From a virus (taxonomy: Duplodnaviria; Heunggongvirae; Uroviricota; Caudoviricetes): a stretch of 5,563 bases of DNA. The position numbers were made by a program, and so were the translations under genes. Positions 209 to 1,403 of the stretch are shown piece by piece. The notes below the pieces were generated by a model. The model was not told the origin of the DNA. It saw only the letters and a list, made by a program, of their open reading frames with translations, and did no database searches. Numbering within the stretch: the first letter of the stretch is position 1; every line of letters begins with the position of its first letter. The stretch lies in IMG/VR virus record IMGVR_UViG_2541047438_000019; one strand, 5' to 3'.

Positions 209-300
209 GTCGGCTCCTTGTGGTTAGCGTTGCCTGCTTTTAACCACGTCAGGCGAGGTGGTATCCTCTGAGGGGTCTGTTACTCGAGAGGAAATTGGTT

Positions 301-501
301 ATGAATACAATCAAGTTTTCTTGCCCAGAATGTGGTGGCGAAGTCTTTGACACATCCTTTAAGCCGCAGGGCTCTGACAGTTTCGCGGGAGCCATCTGCA
401 AAAATTGTGGTCACCTTGTAACTGAAGATGAGTCCTCGCAGTTCGATGACGAAATCGTTGACAATATCTTCGGTGCACTCACCAGAGACTTTCTGAAGTA
501 A
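301..501 (+). CDS. small zinc-ribbon protein, 66 aa (CPEC-x21-CKNC, acidic C-terminus), function unknown
   Basis: ATG at 301 with GAGAGGAAA at 286-294 upstream (the track ORF starts at an in-frame TTG at 295). Two CxxC pairs 21 residues apart are unlikely by chance. Codons are mostly common E. coli codons. A perfect hairpin follows downstream. The fully overlapping reverse ORF 280-636 is its codon-for-codon antisense and uses rare Arg codons for 8 of 9 Arg. Confidence 0.5.
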   Translation: MNTIKFSCPECGGEVFDTSFKPQGSDSFAGAICKNCGHLVTEDESSQFDDEIVDNIFGALTRDFLK

Positions 502-547
502 AGGCGCATACCGCTTAGTTACCGCTCTGATAACTCTTACCTGTCCT

Positions 548-582
548 GCAATGGCGCTGATGTCAATATAAAGCGCCATTGC
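548..582 (+). terminator. candidate intrinsic terminator: perfect 11-bp stem GCAATGGCGCT / AGCGCCATTGC with 13-nt loop, followed by TGCTTCTTTGCC
   Basis: Inverted repeat read directly (548-558 pairs with 572-582). The downstream tract is T-rich but interrupted, so terminator function is uncertain. On the minus strand no U-tract follows. Confidence 0.35.
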
Positions 583-819
583 TGCTTCTTTGCCGATCCC
601 GGGATGCCTTCCATTCTGATGTTTGACTTCGCCCACTGAGAAACCCTCTGTTTCCCCTTAACGCCGGGGTAGCGGAACAAAAAACTGCTGCATAGTTATT
701 AAAGTTGAACCCTGCCGTCATGTTCATACGCCTCGGGCTGGCTACTTAACCCCTGACCACTGCCGGGTAACTCGAAGTATTTCCCTGCGTTCTGTGGGGC
801 GGGGTGGGTTGGTATTTTT

Positions 820-862
820 AGTTTAATAAACATTAAACTTAAGTCAAGTAAAAACTAAACCG
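820..862 (-). promoter_or_regulatory. distal operator-like module with a sigma70-like promoter on the minus strand (TTGACT-N16-TAAACT), near-duplicate of the module at 1835-1884
   Basis: GTTTAATAAAC (821-831, palindromic) + ATTAAACT + AAAAACTAAACCG (850-862) matches GTTTATTAAAC + ACTAAACT + AAAAAAACACTAAACCG at 1846-1884. Minus-strand TTGACT (complement of 842-847) and TAAACT (complement of 820-825) are separated by 16 bp. Confidence 0.4.
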
Positions 863-867
863 CGGGA

Positions 868-912
868 CATAACAAACACAACGCTTTTGATAAAGTCGTT
901 GCGGTTGTTATG
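868..912. terminator. imperfect 16-bp hairpin (14 of 16 paired, 13-nt loop) 20 bp downstream of the parE-like stop; possible bidirectional terminator
   Basis: CATAACAAACACAACG (868-883) pairs with CGTTGCGGTTGTTATG (897-912). TTTCTATT follows on the plus strand; on the minus strand a T-rich tract follows after an 8-nt gap. Not folded computationally. Confidence 0.25.
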
Positions 913-931
913 TTTCTATTGGTAGTGAAAG

Positions 932-1210
932 TTAGGGAAACTGGCGTCTTGCGTGGATCACGTTTACTACTTCAACGCTTGATGTTGTTACGCGGTATAG
1001 AATTATATAGTTAGGGTGGGCTACAATCTCACGCAAGCCAGGTACTCTGTCGCTTGGTGGGTATAAATACGGATGTTCGGATAACGGCAGCACACAACCC
1101 CTTAATCGCTGCCATAAGCGTTCAGCCGCATCTATGTCGAAACGAGCAATATAACTAGTTATATCATCTAGGTCGGTATCTGCGCTTTCAAGCCATAACA
1201 CGGGTAACAT
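932..1210 (-). CDS. parE2: ParE/RelE-family type II toxin (ParE2-like), 92 aa
   Basis: Translation MLPVLWLESADTDLDDITSYIARFDIDAAERLWQRLRGCVLPLSEHPYLYPPSDRVPGLREIVAHPNYIILYRVTTSSVEVVNVIHARRQFP has the ParE pattern (DLDDI..YIA, EHPY, PGLRE..V..Y.I.YRV, V.V..V.HARR). ATG at 1210 lies 1 nt after the stop of the upstream small gene. The longer track ORF (to 1306) would overlap that gene; ParE proteins are about 90-100 aa. Confidence 0.85.
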   Translation of the reverse strand: MLPVLWLESADTDLDDITSYIARFDIDAAERLWQRLRGCVLPLSEHPYLYPPSDRVPGLREIVAHPNYIILYRVTTSSVEVVNVIHARRQFP

Positions 1211-1211
1211 T

Positions 1212-1403
1212 TTACTGCTTGCTCCGTTCCTTGCGCATCTTAGCAAAGCGTTCTGCCATTCTGCGCTCAACTTCGTCATGGGGAATTGCTGGGCGCGGAT
1301 CTGCAAGGCTCGTTGCTACTTTCGCACGCAGCCATTCGTTGTAACTGTTTTCTTGTTCAATGGTTTCAAATTCAGAAACCATTGGTGAAAGGGCTCTATT
1401 CAT
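1212..1403 (-). CDS. paaA2: small antitoxin partnered with ParE (PaaA2-like), 63 aa
   Basis: ATG at 1403 preceded by GGAGGA (complement of 1409-1414). Translation MNRALSPMVSEFETIEQENSYNEWLRAKVATSLADPRPAIPHDEVERRMAERFAKMRKERSKQ matches my recollection of the short PaaA2 antitoxin of E. coli O157:H7. It sits immediately upstream of the ParE gene in the same operon. The track N-terminal extension (to 1457) would overlap the regulator gene. Confidence 0.8.
   Translation of the reverse strand: MNRALSPMVSEFETIEQENSYNEWLRAKVATSLADPRPAIPHDEVERRMAERFAKMRKERSKQ

What the first reader, a model, noticed from the sequence alone, without database searches (positions are those of the whole stretch)
502..931. 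Unusually long (430 bp) non-coding stretch between convergent genes
No convincing ORF on either strand, yet the stretch is structured: a perfect 11-bp hairpin (548-582), a CCCC-N8-GGGG hairpin (654-668), an imperfect 16-bp hairpin (868-912), and, on the minus strand downstream of the pL-like promoter, a C-rich, G-poor tract (complement of about 790-812, AACCCACCCCGCCCCACAG). A C-rich leader is what a Rho-utilisation site looks like, so this could be a regulated leader or a small RNA rather than spacer DNA.
Basis: inference. Interest (0 to 1): 0.4.

Follow-up and report, generated by a model that had tools for sequence, protein, structure and literature searches.

The report
Conserved structured leader RNA behind pL
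The "empty" 430 bp is a patchwork, and its core is a roughly 165-nt folded leader RNA at the start of a prophage's early-left operon; it occurs in about two thirds of complete E. coli genomes (including K-12 Rac), matches no catalogued RNA family, and its function is untested.

Summary
The window is the immunity region of O157:H7 Sakai prophage Sp12, a Rac/Qin-type lambdoid phage with no N gene. The 430 bp is not one element. It has four parts:
- 502-650 is the 3' flank of the convergent zinc-ribbon gene, including its likely terminator hairpin.
- 651-815 (minus strand) is a conserved leader RNA that starts at the pL transcription start.
- 816-862 holds pL and the OL operators.
- 867-913 is a hairpin in the position where related phages carry the immunity-operon terminator.

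The leader has a long irregular hairpin whose helices covary across at least nine sequence classes from six enterobacterial genera. This is followed by an invariant tail that carries a Shine-Dalgarno sequence and the AUG of a mini-ORF of variable length.

The "rut-like" C-rich tract is one strand of a conserved helix, not unstructured RNA. There is no match in Rfam 15, no resemblance to HK022 put, no boxA, and no mention found in the literature. The function is inferred only: control of pL transcripts in cis after initiation.

The parts
502..650 (+). 3' flank of the convergent zinc-ribbon gene ECs_2282; non-coding part of the 285-650 'moron' block
   Evidence: The block 285-650 is found at 100% coverage in 937 E. 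coli genomes, always as one unit. Substitution density is 14-17 per 100 nt in 502-582 against 3.5 per 100 nt in the CDS. Within 301-501, 6 of 7 changes are synonymous in the + frame and 7 of 7 are non-synonymous in the minus frame. NCBIfam ECs_2282_CxxC scores E = 1e-15.
548..582 (+). Perfect 11-bp hairpin; probable intrinsic terminator of ECs_2282
   Evidence: -21 kcal/mol, z = -5.0. On the + strand it is followed by UGCUUCUUUGCC. On the minus strand no U tract follows. Termination itself is inferred.
651..710 (-). 3' module of the pL leader: variable hairpin region, conserved GUUCCGCU (678-671), and hairpin P5, CCCC(669-666)-GGCGUUAA-GGGG(657-654)
   Evidence: P5 is paired in 89% of cells and 3 of 4 pairs show compensatory changes. 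Covariation is 0.162 against 0.036 in shuffles (0/500). An alternative hairpin, CGCY/GGCG, is paired in 92% of cells. In other phages P5 directly abuts the SD of the first gene, ydfA or ydaG. K-12 Qin keeps only this module.
714..748 (-). Invariant single-stranded tail UAAGUAGCCAGCCCGAGGCGUAUGAACAUGACGGC. It carries a small hairpin GCC(742-740)/GGC(732-730), an SD-like GAGG (734-731) and an AUG (721-719).
   Evidence: The tail is invariant in 46 representative sequences. It is also invariant in members retrieved with an anchor that did not include it. The only variable positions lie in the SD-AUG spacer, whose length is 7-9 nt.
749..805 (-). Long irregular hairpin HP1: P2a (805-801 with 753-749), P2b (797-794 with 760-757), junction AGAAC (793-789), P1 (788-783 with 767-762), and the conserved top AAAUAC-UUC-GAGUUA (782-768).
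   Evidence: The same nested architecture appears in about 20 of 23 single-sequence MFE folds from at least 9 classes. On the CM alignment, covariation is 0.345 against 0.122 in shuffles (0/500) and at most 0.054 when slid; 14 of 20 pairs show double changes. On an ungapped P1 alignment that does not depend on the model, covariation is 0.302 against 0.139 (0/500), with 7 of 10 pairs compensatory.
563..721 (-). Mini-ORF starting at the conserved AUG (52 codons in this window; MTAGFNF...). Its length and sequence are not conserved.
   Evidence: Length is 4 to about 52 codons in relatives: MTAG*, MTAL*, MTAVVD*, MKASDDS*, 18 codons in Rac, and fused in frame to ydfA in others. Whether it is translated was not tested.
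816..862 (-). pL promoter (-35 at 847-842, -10 at 825-820, start near 813) with OL operator repeats (825-838, 847-860)
   Evidence: The operator family AnTAAACACTAAAC is shared with OR at 1811-1882.
867..913 (.). Imperfect hairpin between the end of the cI-relB-relE operon and pL; positional analogue of the immunity-operon terminator (t_imm)
   Evidence: Phage 689R5 has a canonical terminator in the same position (L002 3246-3226). A heteroimmune relative has a different hairpin there. The strand on which it acts is unresolved: a U-rich run follows immediately only on the + strand.

Best explanation
Window 813 to 651 (minus strand) encodes the 5' leader of the early-left (pL) operon of a Rac/Qin-type lambdoid prophage.

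Shown:
- It is a conserved, modular, structured RNA that begins within a few nucleotides of the pL start.
- A 57-nt irregular hairpin (HP1) has helices that covary while its top loop is fixed.
- An invariant 35-nt tail follows, carrying GAGG and an AUG 7-9 nt later.
- In this window a 3' module follows. Its sequence GUUCCGCY can pair either with the tail (GGCG...GAAC) or with the loop of hairpin P5.

Inferred: the leader acts in cis after initiation to decide whether pL transcripts are productively translated and elongated into the toxic early-left genes (ydfC, DicF, dicB, exo).

My favoured mechanism is a ribosome-dependent leader switch. Initiation at the conserved mini-ORF start frees or occupies the tail. 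This re-partitions the GUUCCGCY / P5 pairings. In turn that sets access to the first gene's ribosome-binding site and the exposure of the long untranslated downstream RNA to Rho. HP1, with its fixed apical sequence, would be the binding site of a host factor that tunes this step.

The other hairpins in the 430 bp are ordinary: a terminator for the convergent gene and a terminator or insulator upstream of pL.

The 0.45 applies to the favoured mechanism. That the region encodes a conserved structured pL leader RNA I put at about 0.9.
For: Position and modularity:
- Conservation begins at the pL start and ends after P5. The segment is always downstream of a repressor gene and promoter, with different operators upstream and different first genes downstream.
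- Part of the 430-bp query is found in 3718 of 5426 complete E. coli genomes, with up to 8 places per genome; most listed hits cover only the leader segment 651-815.
- The core was found by exact match to a 19-nt tail motif in Escherichia, Shigella, Serratia, Pectobacterium, Symbiopectobacterium, Superficieibacter and Arsenophonus/Phlomobacter.

Structure.

Translation start features:
- GAGG and AUG are invariant. Only the spacer varies in sequence and length.
- ORF length varies from 4 to about 52 codons, so the peptide itself is not selected.
- In Rac the mini-ORF stops in the P5 loop, 14 nt before ydaG.
- In a Symbiopectobacterium copy it overlaps the next gene's start.

Alternative pairings.

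Context that makes post-initiation control useful:
- About 600 nt of pL RNA is untranslated and antisense to ECs_2282 before ydfC.
- DicF, whose 3' end is reported to be formed by an intrinsic terminator (own knowledge, Faubladier et al. 1990), lies in the same operon.
- Rho is known to silence the Rac kil gene (PMC4150792).
Against: - No experiment bears on function.
- Mini-ORF translation is unproven. Coupling to the next gene is not uniform across classes.
- The 13 invariant bases upstream of the SD and the fixed HP1 top are not explained by a plain ribosome-binding site.
- The 3' module is absent in four classes.
- MFE folds of the 3' module are inconsistent.
- The tail's invariance gives no covariation test for the proposed tail:GUUCCGC pairing.
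- The homologue set was seeded with an exact 19-mer from the tail. Its invariance is therefore partly built in, and was checked independently only for classes A and B.
- K-12 Qin lacks the core yet is reported to express dicB when DicA is inactivated (PMC10448788).
Confidence: 0.45

Rival explanations
1. Processive antiterminator RNA that works like HK022 put. The nascent HP1 plus tail hairpin binds the transcribing RNA polymerase without any phage protein. This makes pL-initiated complexes resistant to Rho and to intrinsic terminators such as the one at DicF.
For: - The prophage has no N gene and no boxA.
- The element starts at the very 5' end of the pL transcript, as putL does (PMC9378689).
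- The pL operon contains DicF, whose 3' end is reported to be formed by an intrinsic terminator (own knowledge), and long untranslated antisense stretches.
- The unpaired residues are identical across six genera, which fits a conserved host partner such as RNA polymerase.
- Two hairpins in tandem is loosely put-like.
Against: - Arsenophonus/Phlomobacter copies keep the element immediately upstream of a canonical nutL (boxA, boxB, boxC) and an N-like arginine-rich protein. There it is not a substitute for N.
- No second copy exists on the pR side in any locus searched.
- The covariance model finds nothing in HK022.
- Local similarity to putR is a single 17-nt stretch inside helices that are not conserved in the family, and putL shows none.
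Confidence: 0.25
2. One reading: the C-rich, G-poor 5' tract is a Rho-utilisation site, and the leader is a Rho-dependent attenuator.
For: The first 78 nt have C/G 1.35. Rho does silence Rac-type early-left genes (PMC4150792).
Against: - The tract pairs with a G-rich strand in a helix that is conserved by compensatory change. In other classes the tract is not C-rich at all, for example GCAACAGGCAAA in Arsenophonus.
- C/G falls below 1 for the rest of the leader.
Confidence: 0.05
3. RNA processing or stability element, or an RNA that acts in trans. HP1 could be an RNase III substrate or a 5' stabiliser. Alternatively the leader could be cut out and act as a decoy for a host protein or RNA early after induction.
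For: A long imperfect hairpin with internal loops resembles phage RNase III sites, a resemblance drawn from general knowledge. The leader is the first RNA made from pL. Its fixed loop and tail sequences suggest a specific partner.
Against: RNase III sites do not need invariant apical or flanking sequence. About 8-10 unpaired nucleotides precede the hairpin, so it is a poor 5'-end protector. No terminator or defined 3' end is seen. No Hfq-associated RNA is reported at this locus in Sakai.
Confidence: 0.15
4. Part of the stretch is protein-coding. One option is that the minus-strand 118-aa ORF (280-636) is the real first gene of the pL operon. The other is that the 52-54-aa ORF from 721/727 encodes a protein.
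For: - Some phage and RefSeq records annotate the minus ORF, and it matches phrog_21318.
- It has a GAGGG-N8-GUG start just after P5.
- In 502-636, 9 of 18 changes are synonymous in that frame.
- The 54-aa ORF matches phrog_37620 over its first 25 residues.
Against: - Over 301-501 all 7 substitutions are non-synonymous in the minus frame, while 6 of 7 are synonymous in the + frame.
- A copy with only 95% DNA identity encodes the identical zinc-ribbon protein, WP_001092153.1.
- The 721 ORF is cut by frameshifts or stops after 4-18 codons in relatives.
Confidence: 0.07

Closest known systems
HK022 put RNAs (putL, putR): cis-acting antiterminator RNAs
   Same: A structured RNA encoded immediately downstream of pL in a lambdoid phage. 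It is made as the first part of the early-left transcript, has tandem hairpins, and needs no dedicated phage protein encoded nearby.
   Different: - No sequence or model-level similarity.
- One 57-nt irregular hairpin plus a largely single-stranded invariant tail, rather than two stem-loops of about 30-35 nt.
- No pR copy.
- Coexists with nutL and N in some phages.
- Contains a ribosome-binding site and a start codon.
Lambda nutL / N leader (boxA, boxB)
   Same: Same genomic slot, between pL and the first early-left gene. In Arsenophonus prophages the element sits directly upstream of a canonical nutL.
   Different: The window has no boxA-like site, no boxB-type hairpin and no N-like protein. 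The element is a separate module from nut.
Leader-ORF-controlled Rho attenuators of enterobacteria (e.g. the Salmonella corA and mgtA leaders)
   Same: A 5' leader with stem-loops, a short ORF whose peptide is unimportant, and mutually exclusive downstream pairings. The setting is one where Rho is known to silence the downstream genes.
   Different: No C-rich unstructured rut has been identified within the leader. No homology. The 3' switch module is missing in several classes. All of this is inferred.
dicBF operon leader of K-12 Qin and the racR-ydaG region of K-12 Rac
   Same: Same operon type. Rac carries the complete element, scoring 123.6 bits against the model (sequence). Qin carries only the 3' module in front of ydfA.
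   Different: Neither region has an annotated RNA feature in RefSeq MG1655. The outline and abstract of the dicBF regulation paper PMC10448788 mention no leader element, and it does not appear in the passages read of the Rac Rho-termination paper PMC4150792.

Membership tests
HK022 put antiterminator RNA | Sequence or profile similarity to putL/putR | tested here: not met
   The covariance model of the element finds nothing in the HK022 immunity region at E <= 1. Local alignment to putL is at shuffle level. For putR there is one 17-nt stretch (3 of 500 shuffles reach its score), lying in helices that are not conserved in the family.
HK022 put antiterminator RNA | Two adjacent stem-loops of about 70 nt in total | tested here: not met
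   The structure is one 57-nt irregular hairpin plus a 35-nt tail carrying only a 3-bp hairpin.
HK022 put antiterminator RNA | Copies downstream of both pL and pR | tested here: not met
   In E. coli-type loci there is one copy, on the pL side only. Second copies in Arsenophonus belong to a second repressor-pL module.
HK022 put antiterminator RNA | Suppresses termination in cis by binding the RNA polymerase beta' zinc-binding domain | not testable with these tools
   This needs reporter or in vitro transcription assays.
Lambda-type nut site | boxA (CGCUCUUUA-like) followed by a boxB hairpin, with an N protein carrying an arginine-rich motif | tested here: not met
   No boxA match within 2 mismatches lies in or near the leader. 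No N-like ORF is present. By contrast, Arsenophonus copies have boxA, boxB and an N-like ORF downstream of the element.
Rho-utilisation (rut) site | About 70-80 nt of C-rich, G-poor, unstructured RNA | tested here: not met
   The C tract is base-paired in a covarying helix. C/G exceeds 1 only in the first window.
Rho-utilisation (rut) site | Rho-dependent 3' ends that are sensitive to bicyclomycin | not testable with these tools
   No transcript data are available here.
Intrinsic terminator (for hairpin 548-582) | GC-rich stem directly followed by a U-rich run, downstream of a gene on the same strand | tested here: inconclusive
   An 11-bp stem lies 46 nt after the ECs_2282 stop and is followed by UGCUUCUUUGCC (6 U in 12). 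The 13-nt loop exceeds the scanner's limit, so the scan did not call it.
Intrinsic terminator (for hairpin 867-913) | Stem directly followed by a U-rich run on the strand of the upstream operon | tested here: inconclusive
   On the minus strand (the cI-relBE operon) the stem is followed by CCCGCGGUUUAGUUUUU. On the + strand it is followed by UUCUAUU. A canonical terminator occupies this position in phage 689R5.
AgvB/AsxR prophage anti-sRNAs (Tree et al. 2014) | An sRNA of 51-60 nt with a conserved 3' terminator, located at the PR' moron site | tested here: not met
   These sRNAs lie downstream of Q/PR', not in the immunity region (PMC4104026). None of the listed EcOnc coordinates falls in Sakai 2249500-2250099.
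Any Rfam 15 family | Covariance-model match | tested here: not met
   No match overlaps the leader at E <= 10 in the window, or at E <= 0.1 in six loci from other classes.

The most novel reading that the evidence does not exclude
The leader is an undescribed class of cis-acting RNA that binds a conserved host machine (RNA polymerase or the ribosome) as it emerges. It would render pL-initiated transcription of N-less Rac/Qin-type prophages resistant to Rho and to intrinsic terminators. In function it would be a counterpart of HK022 put with an unrelated fold, present in K-12 Rac and in most E. coli genomes.
Probability: 0.25. Interest if true: 0.8.

Novelty: new variant of a known kind. Interest (0 to 1): 0.6.

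Why it matters
Rac- and Qin-type prophages carry toxic early-left genes (kil, dicB, DicF). They have no N protein, and how their early-left operon is read through terminators and long untranslated stretches is not known.

A leader RNA with fixed sequence motifs and covarying helices sits exactly where lambda has nutL and HK022 has putL. It is present in about two thirds of complete E. coli genomes. That makes the question directly testable in K-12, in the racR-ydaG region.

It also adds an uncatalogued structured RNA motif to a very well-studied organism. It further shows that 'intergenic' length in prophage immunity regions can hide several unrelated modules.

Tried and rejected
- **AgvB-like anti-sRNA.** Considered for the CA-rich arm of hairpin 867-913. 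Rejected because AgvB sits at the PR' moron site and has a different sequence.
- **Rfam.** Searches of the window and of six other loci gave nothing on the element.
- **RNAalifold on a plain MAFFT alignment.** It found only the invariant 3-bp hairpin, because the helices are out of register between classes. A covariance-model alignment, single-sequence folds and an anchor-based ungapped alignment were used instead.
- **G-U versus A-C counts to assign the strand.** Not decisive: 22 against 45 once the one conserved U-G is set aside. The strand rests on promoter, SD/AUG and nutL orientation.
- **Metagenome scan with a tail-independent anchor.** It returned only the common E. coli classes plus chance hits.
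- **Literature searches** by sequence motif and by gene names found no description. Supplements of Tree et al. 2014 list no sRNA at this locus.
- **MFE folding of the 3' module.** It gave inconsistent structures. The proposed tail:GUUCCGC pairing therefore remains a hypothesis.
- **CRISPR-repeat resemblance.** The 28 nt ending in P5 superficially resemble CRISPR-repeat termini. This was noted and not pursued.

Full report
**What the window is.** The 5563 bases are 100% identical to E. coli O157:H7 chromosomes and correspond to Sakai prophage Sp12.

Gene order, in window coordinates:
- ydfC (208 to 1, minus)
- ECs_2282 zinc-ribbon gene (301-501, plus)
- the 430-bp stretch
- relE/parE toxin and relB antitoxin (932-1403, minus)
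- a DicA-like repressor (1424-1795, minus)
- a divergent cro-like gene, then ydaT and replication genes

This is a Rac/Qin-type lambdoid immunity region. Further left in the same prophage lie DicF, dicB, ydfD and an exonuclease VIII gene. No N gene is present.

The promoter TTGACT-16-TAAACT (847 to 820, minus strand) is embedded in 14-nt repeats. These occur twice here and three times between the repressor and cro genes, so they are the OL and OR operators and the promoter is pL. Transcription should start near 813 and run leftward.

**The stretch is four modules.** Similarity searches split the 430 bp cleanly.
- *502-650* travels only with the zinc-ribbon gene. Block 285-650 is found at full length in 937 E. 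coli genomes.
- *651-815* is far more widespread. Part of the query is found in 3718 of 5426 complete E. coli genomes, with up to 8 places per genome and six in O157 strains; most listed hits cover only 651-815. Only 12 of 50,697 phage records carry it, and none is a classical model phage.
- *816-931* occurs only with this immunity type.

**Module 502-650.** Some records annotate a minus-strand ORF of 99-118 aa here. I compared six copies.
- Inside 301-501, 6 of 7 substitutions are synonymous third-position changes in the plus frame, and all 7 are non-synonymous in the minus frame.
- A copy only 95% identical in DNA encodes the identical zinc-ribbon protein.
- Substitution density rises from 3.5 to 14-17 per 100 nt beyond the stop codon.

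The plus-strand gene is therefore real, the minus ORF is its shadow, and 502-650 is its non-coding 3' flank. The perfect 11-bp hairpin (z = -5.0) followed by UGCUUCUUUGCC on the plus strand is most simply that gene's terminator. This last step is inferred.

**Module 651-815, the leader.** In every context examined the segment lies just downstream of a repressor gene and a promoter, on the same strand. The operators upstream differ and so do the first genes downstream:
- ydfA in Qin-type phages
- ydaG in Rac
- an N-like gene in Arsenophonus
- other genes in Serratia and Symbiopectobacterium

Conservation starts at the transcription start. The ORF that begins at 721 is interrupted by frameshifts or stops after 4-18 codons in relatives, so the segment is not a protein gene.

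*Gathering relatives.* Scanning public collections for a 19-mer from the segment gave at least nine sequence classes. They come from Escherichia/Shigella, Serratia, Pectobacterium, Symbiopectobacterium (eight copies in one genome), Superficieibacter and Arsenophonus/Phlomobacter.

*Structure of the core.*
- Independent minimum-energy folds of 23 sequences give the same nested architecture in about 20. It consists of an outer helix P2a, an internal loop, helix P2b, a 4-5-nt junction, and helix P1 with a recurrent central mismatch. The top is fixed: CAAUAC-NNN-GAGUUA.
- The helix sequences are completely different between classes. For example, ACCCC/GGGGU plus CCAC/GUGG in E. coli becomes GCAAC/GUUGC plus GGCAAA/UUUGCC in Arsenophonus.
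- On a covariance-model alignment of 66 distinct sequences, 14 of 20 pairs show changes on both sides. The covariation score is 0.345, against 0.122 in shuffles (0 of 500) and at most 0.054 with slid partners.
- That alignment is fitted to the model, so I also tested P1 on an ungapped alignment anchored only by the invariant loop. There 7 of 10 pairs are compensatory, with covariation 0.302 against 0.139 (0 of 500).

*The tail.* After the hairpin comes UAAGUAGCCAGCCYGAGGC-NNAN-GAACAUGAMGGC.
- It is invariant in all members, including those retrieved with an anchor that did not contain it. That independent check covered only the two commonest classes.
- It holds GAGG and, 7-9 nt later, an AUG.
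- The only variable positions are in that spacer.
- The ORF it opens runs 4 to about 52 codons, with no conserved sequence beyond Met-Thr/Lys-Ala.

*The 3' module.* This is present in the window and in several other classes.
- That hairpin is paired in 89% of cells, with compensatory changes at 3 of 4 pairs.
- In other phages it ends directly at the ribosome-binding site of the first gene.
- CGCY can alternatively pair with GGCG in that hairpin's loop (92% of cells paired) or with GGCG in the tail.
- The window's copy has lost its original first gene. The zinc-ribbon block is joined right after GGGGAAA.

**Module 816-931.** This holds pL/OL and, between the toxin's stop codon and pL, the 22-nt-arm hairpin. 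A related phage has a canonical terminator at this position, and a heteroimmune relative has a different hairpin there. It is most likely the terminator or insulator at the end of the immunity operon. Which strand it serves is not resolved.

**What the leader is not.**
- It matches no Rfam 15 family.
- The model finds nothing in HK022. Similarity to putR is one short stretch in non-conserved helices.
- There is no boxA.
- It is not a rut site. The tract is paired, and C/G is below 1 for most of the leader.
- No second copy exists on the pR side.
- I found no description in the searchable literature. RefSeq MG1655 annotates nothing between racR and ydaG, although Rac carries the complete element behind a near-consensus promoter.

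**How it probably works.** This section is inference. The pL RNA of this prophage must cross about 600 untranslated nucleotides antisense to ECs_2282. It then passes DicF, whose 3' end is reported to be formed by an intrinsic terminator (own knowledge, Faubladier et al. 1990), before reaching dicB and the exonuclease gene. Rho is known to silence Rac's kil gene. A leader that sets the fate of pL transcripts after initiation is therefore plausible. Two mechanisms fit.

1. *Ribosome-dependent switch (favoured, about 0.45).* It is built on the conserved translation start and the competing pairings of the 3' module. Two facts favour it. The invariant SD and AUG have a variable spacer. The element also persists upstream of a complete nutL and N gene in Arsenophonus, where a second antiterminator would be redundant.
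2. *Put-like, factor-independent modification of RNA polymerase (about 0.25).* This fits the 5'-terminal position, the N-less host phage and the cross-genus invariance of the unpaired residues.

Neither mechanism explains everything. In particular, the fixed top of the hairpin and the 13 invariant bases before the SD point to an unidentified partner.

**Verdict.** It is not a rut site or a single long spacer. It is an uncatalogued, widespread, covariation-supported leader RNA at pL, flanked by ordinary terminator-like hairpins that belong to neighbouring modules.

Noticed in passing
window 932-1403 (minus): A relB/relE-type toxin-antitoxin pair lies between the repressor gene and pL, the position rexAB occupies in lambda.
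   Followed up: no
window 280-636 (minus) versus 301-501 (plus): Public records disagree on which strand is coding. PGAP calls the plus-strand zinc-ribbon gene, while several phage records and O55:H7 RefSeq call a 99-118 aa minus-strand ORF. Substitution patterns support the plus strand. PPompW and O55:H7 copies carry a premature stop (340 G>T) in the zinc-ribbon frame.
   Followed up: yes
L144 1-4800; also L137, L175, L132, L237, L258, L229, L256, L269: Arsenophonus/Phlomobacter prophages carry two complete modules in tandem, each with a repressor, pL, the leader, nutL and an N-like gene. The modules lie 1.7-2.7 kb apart on the same strand.
   Followed up: partly
L275 1843-2012 (K-12 Qin) and L276 2960-3160 (K-12 Rac): K-12 Qin has lost the hairpin and tail. 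It keeps only the 3' module (GUUCCGC plus the P5 hairpin) in front of ydfA. K-12 Rac has the whole leader behind TTGACA-17-TATAGT.
   Followed up: partly
window 216-345 (minus-strand RNA): The RNA just upstream of ydfC has C/G of 1.5-1.9. This is a more rut-like composition than the 5' C tract.
   Followed up: no
L001 5095-5146 (minus), outside the window: A DicF sRNA gene (Rfam, 76.7 bits) lies in the same pL operon, between ydfC and dicB.
   Followed up: no
window 651-678 (minus): The 28 nt GUUCCGCUACCCCGGCGUUAAGGGGAAA begin with GUUC and end with GAAA around a hairpin, like many CRISPR repeats. Identity to the E. coli I-F repeat, as I recall it, is only about 11 of 28, so this is probably chance.
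   Followed up: no
window 867-888 (plus): The 5' arm of the hairpin contains CAAACACAAC, which by my recollection of the GcvB sequence is complementary to its R1 seed. It is buried in the stem, and the locus is not one of the known AgvB sites.
   Followed up: partly
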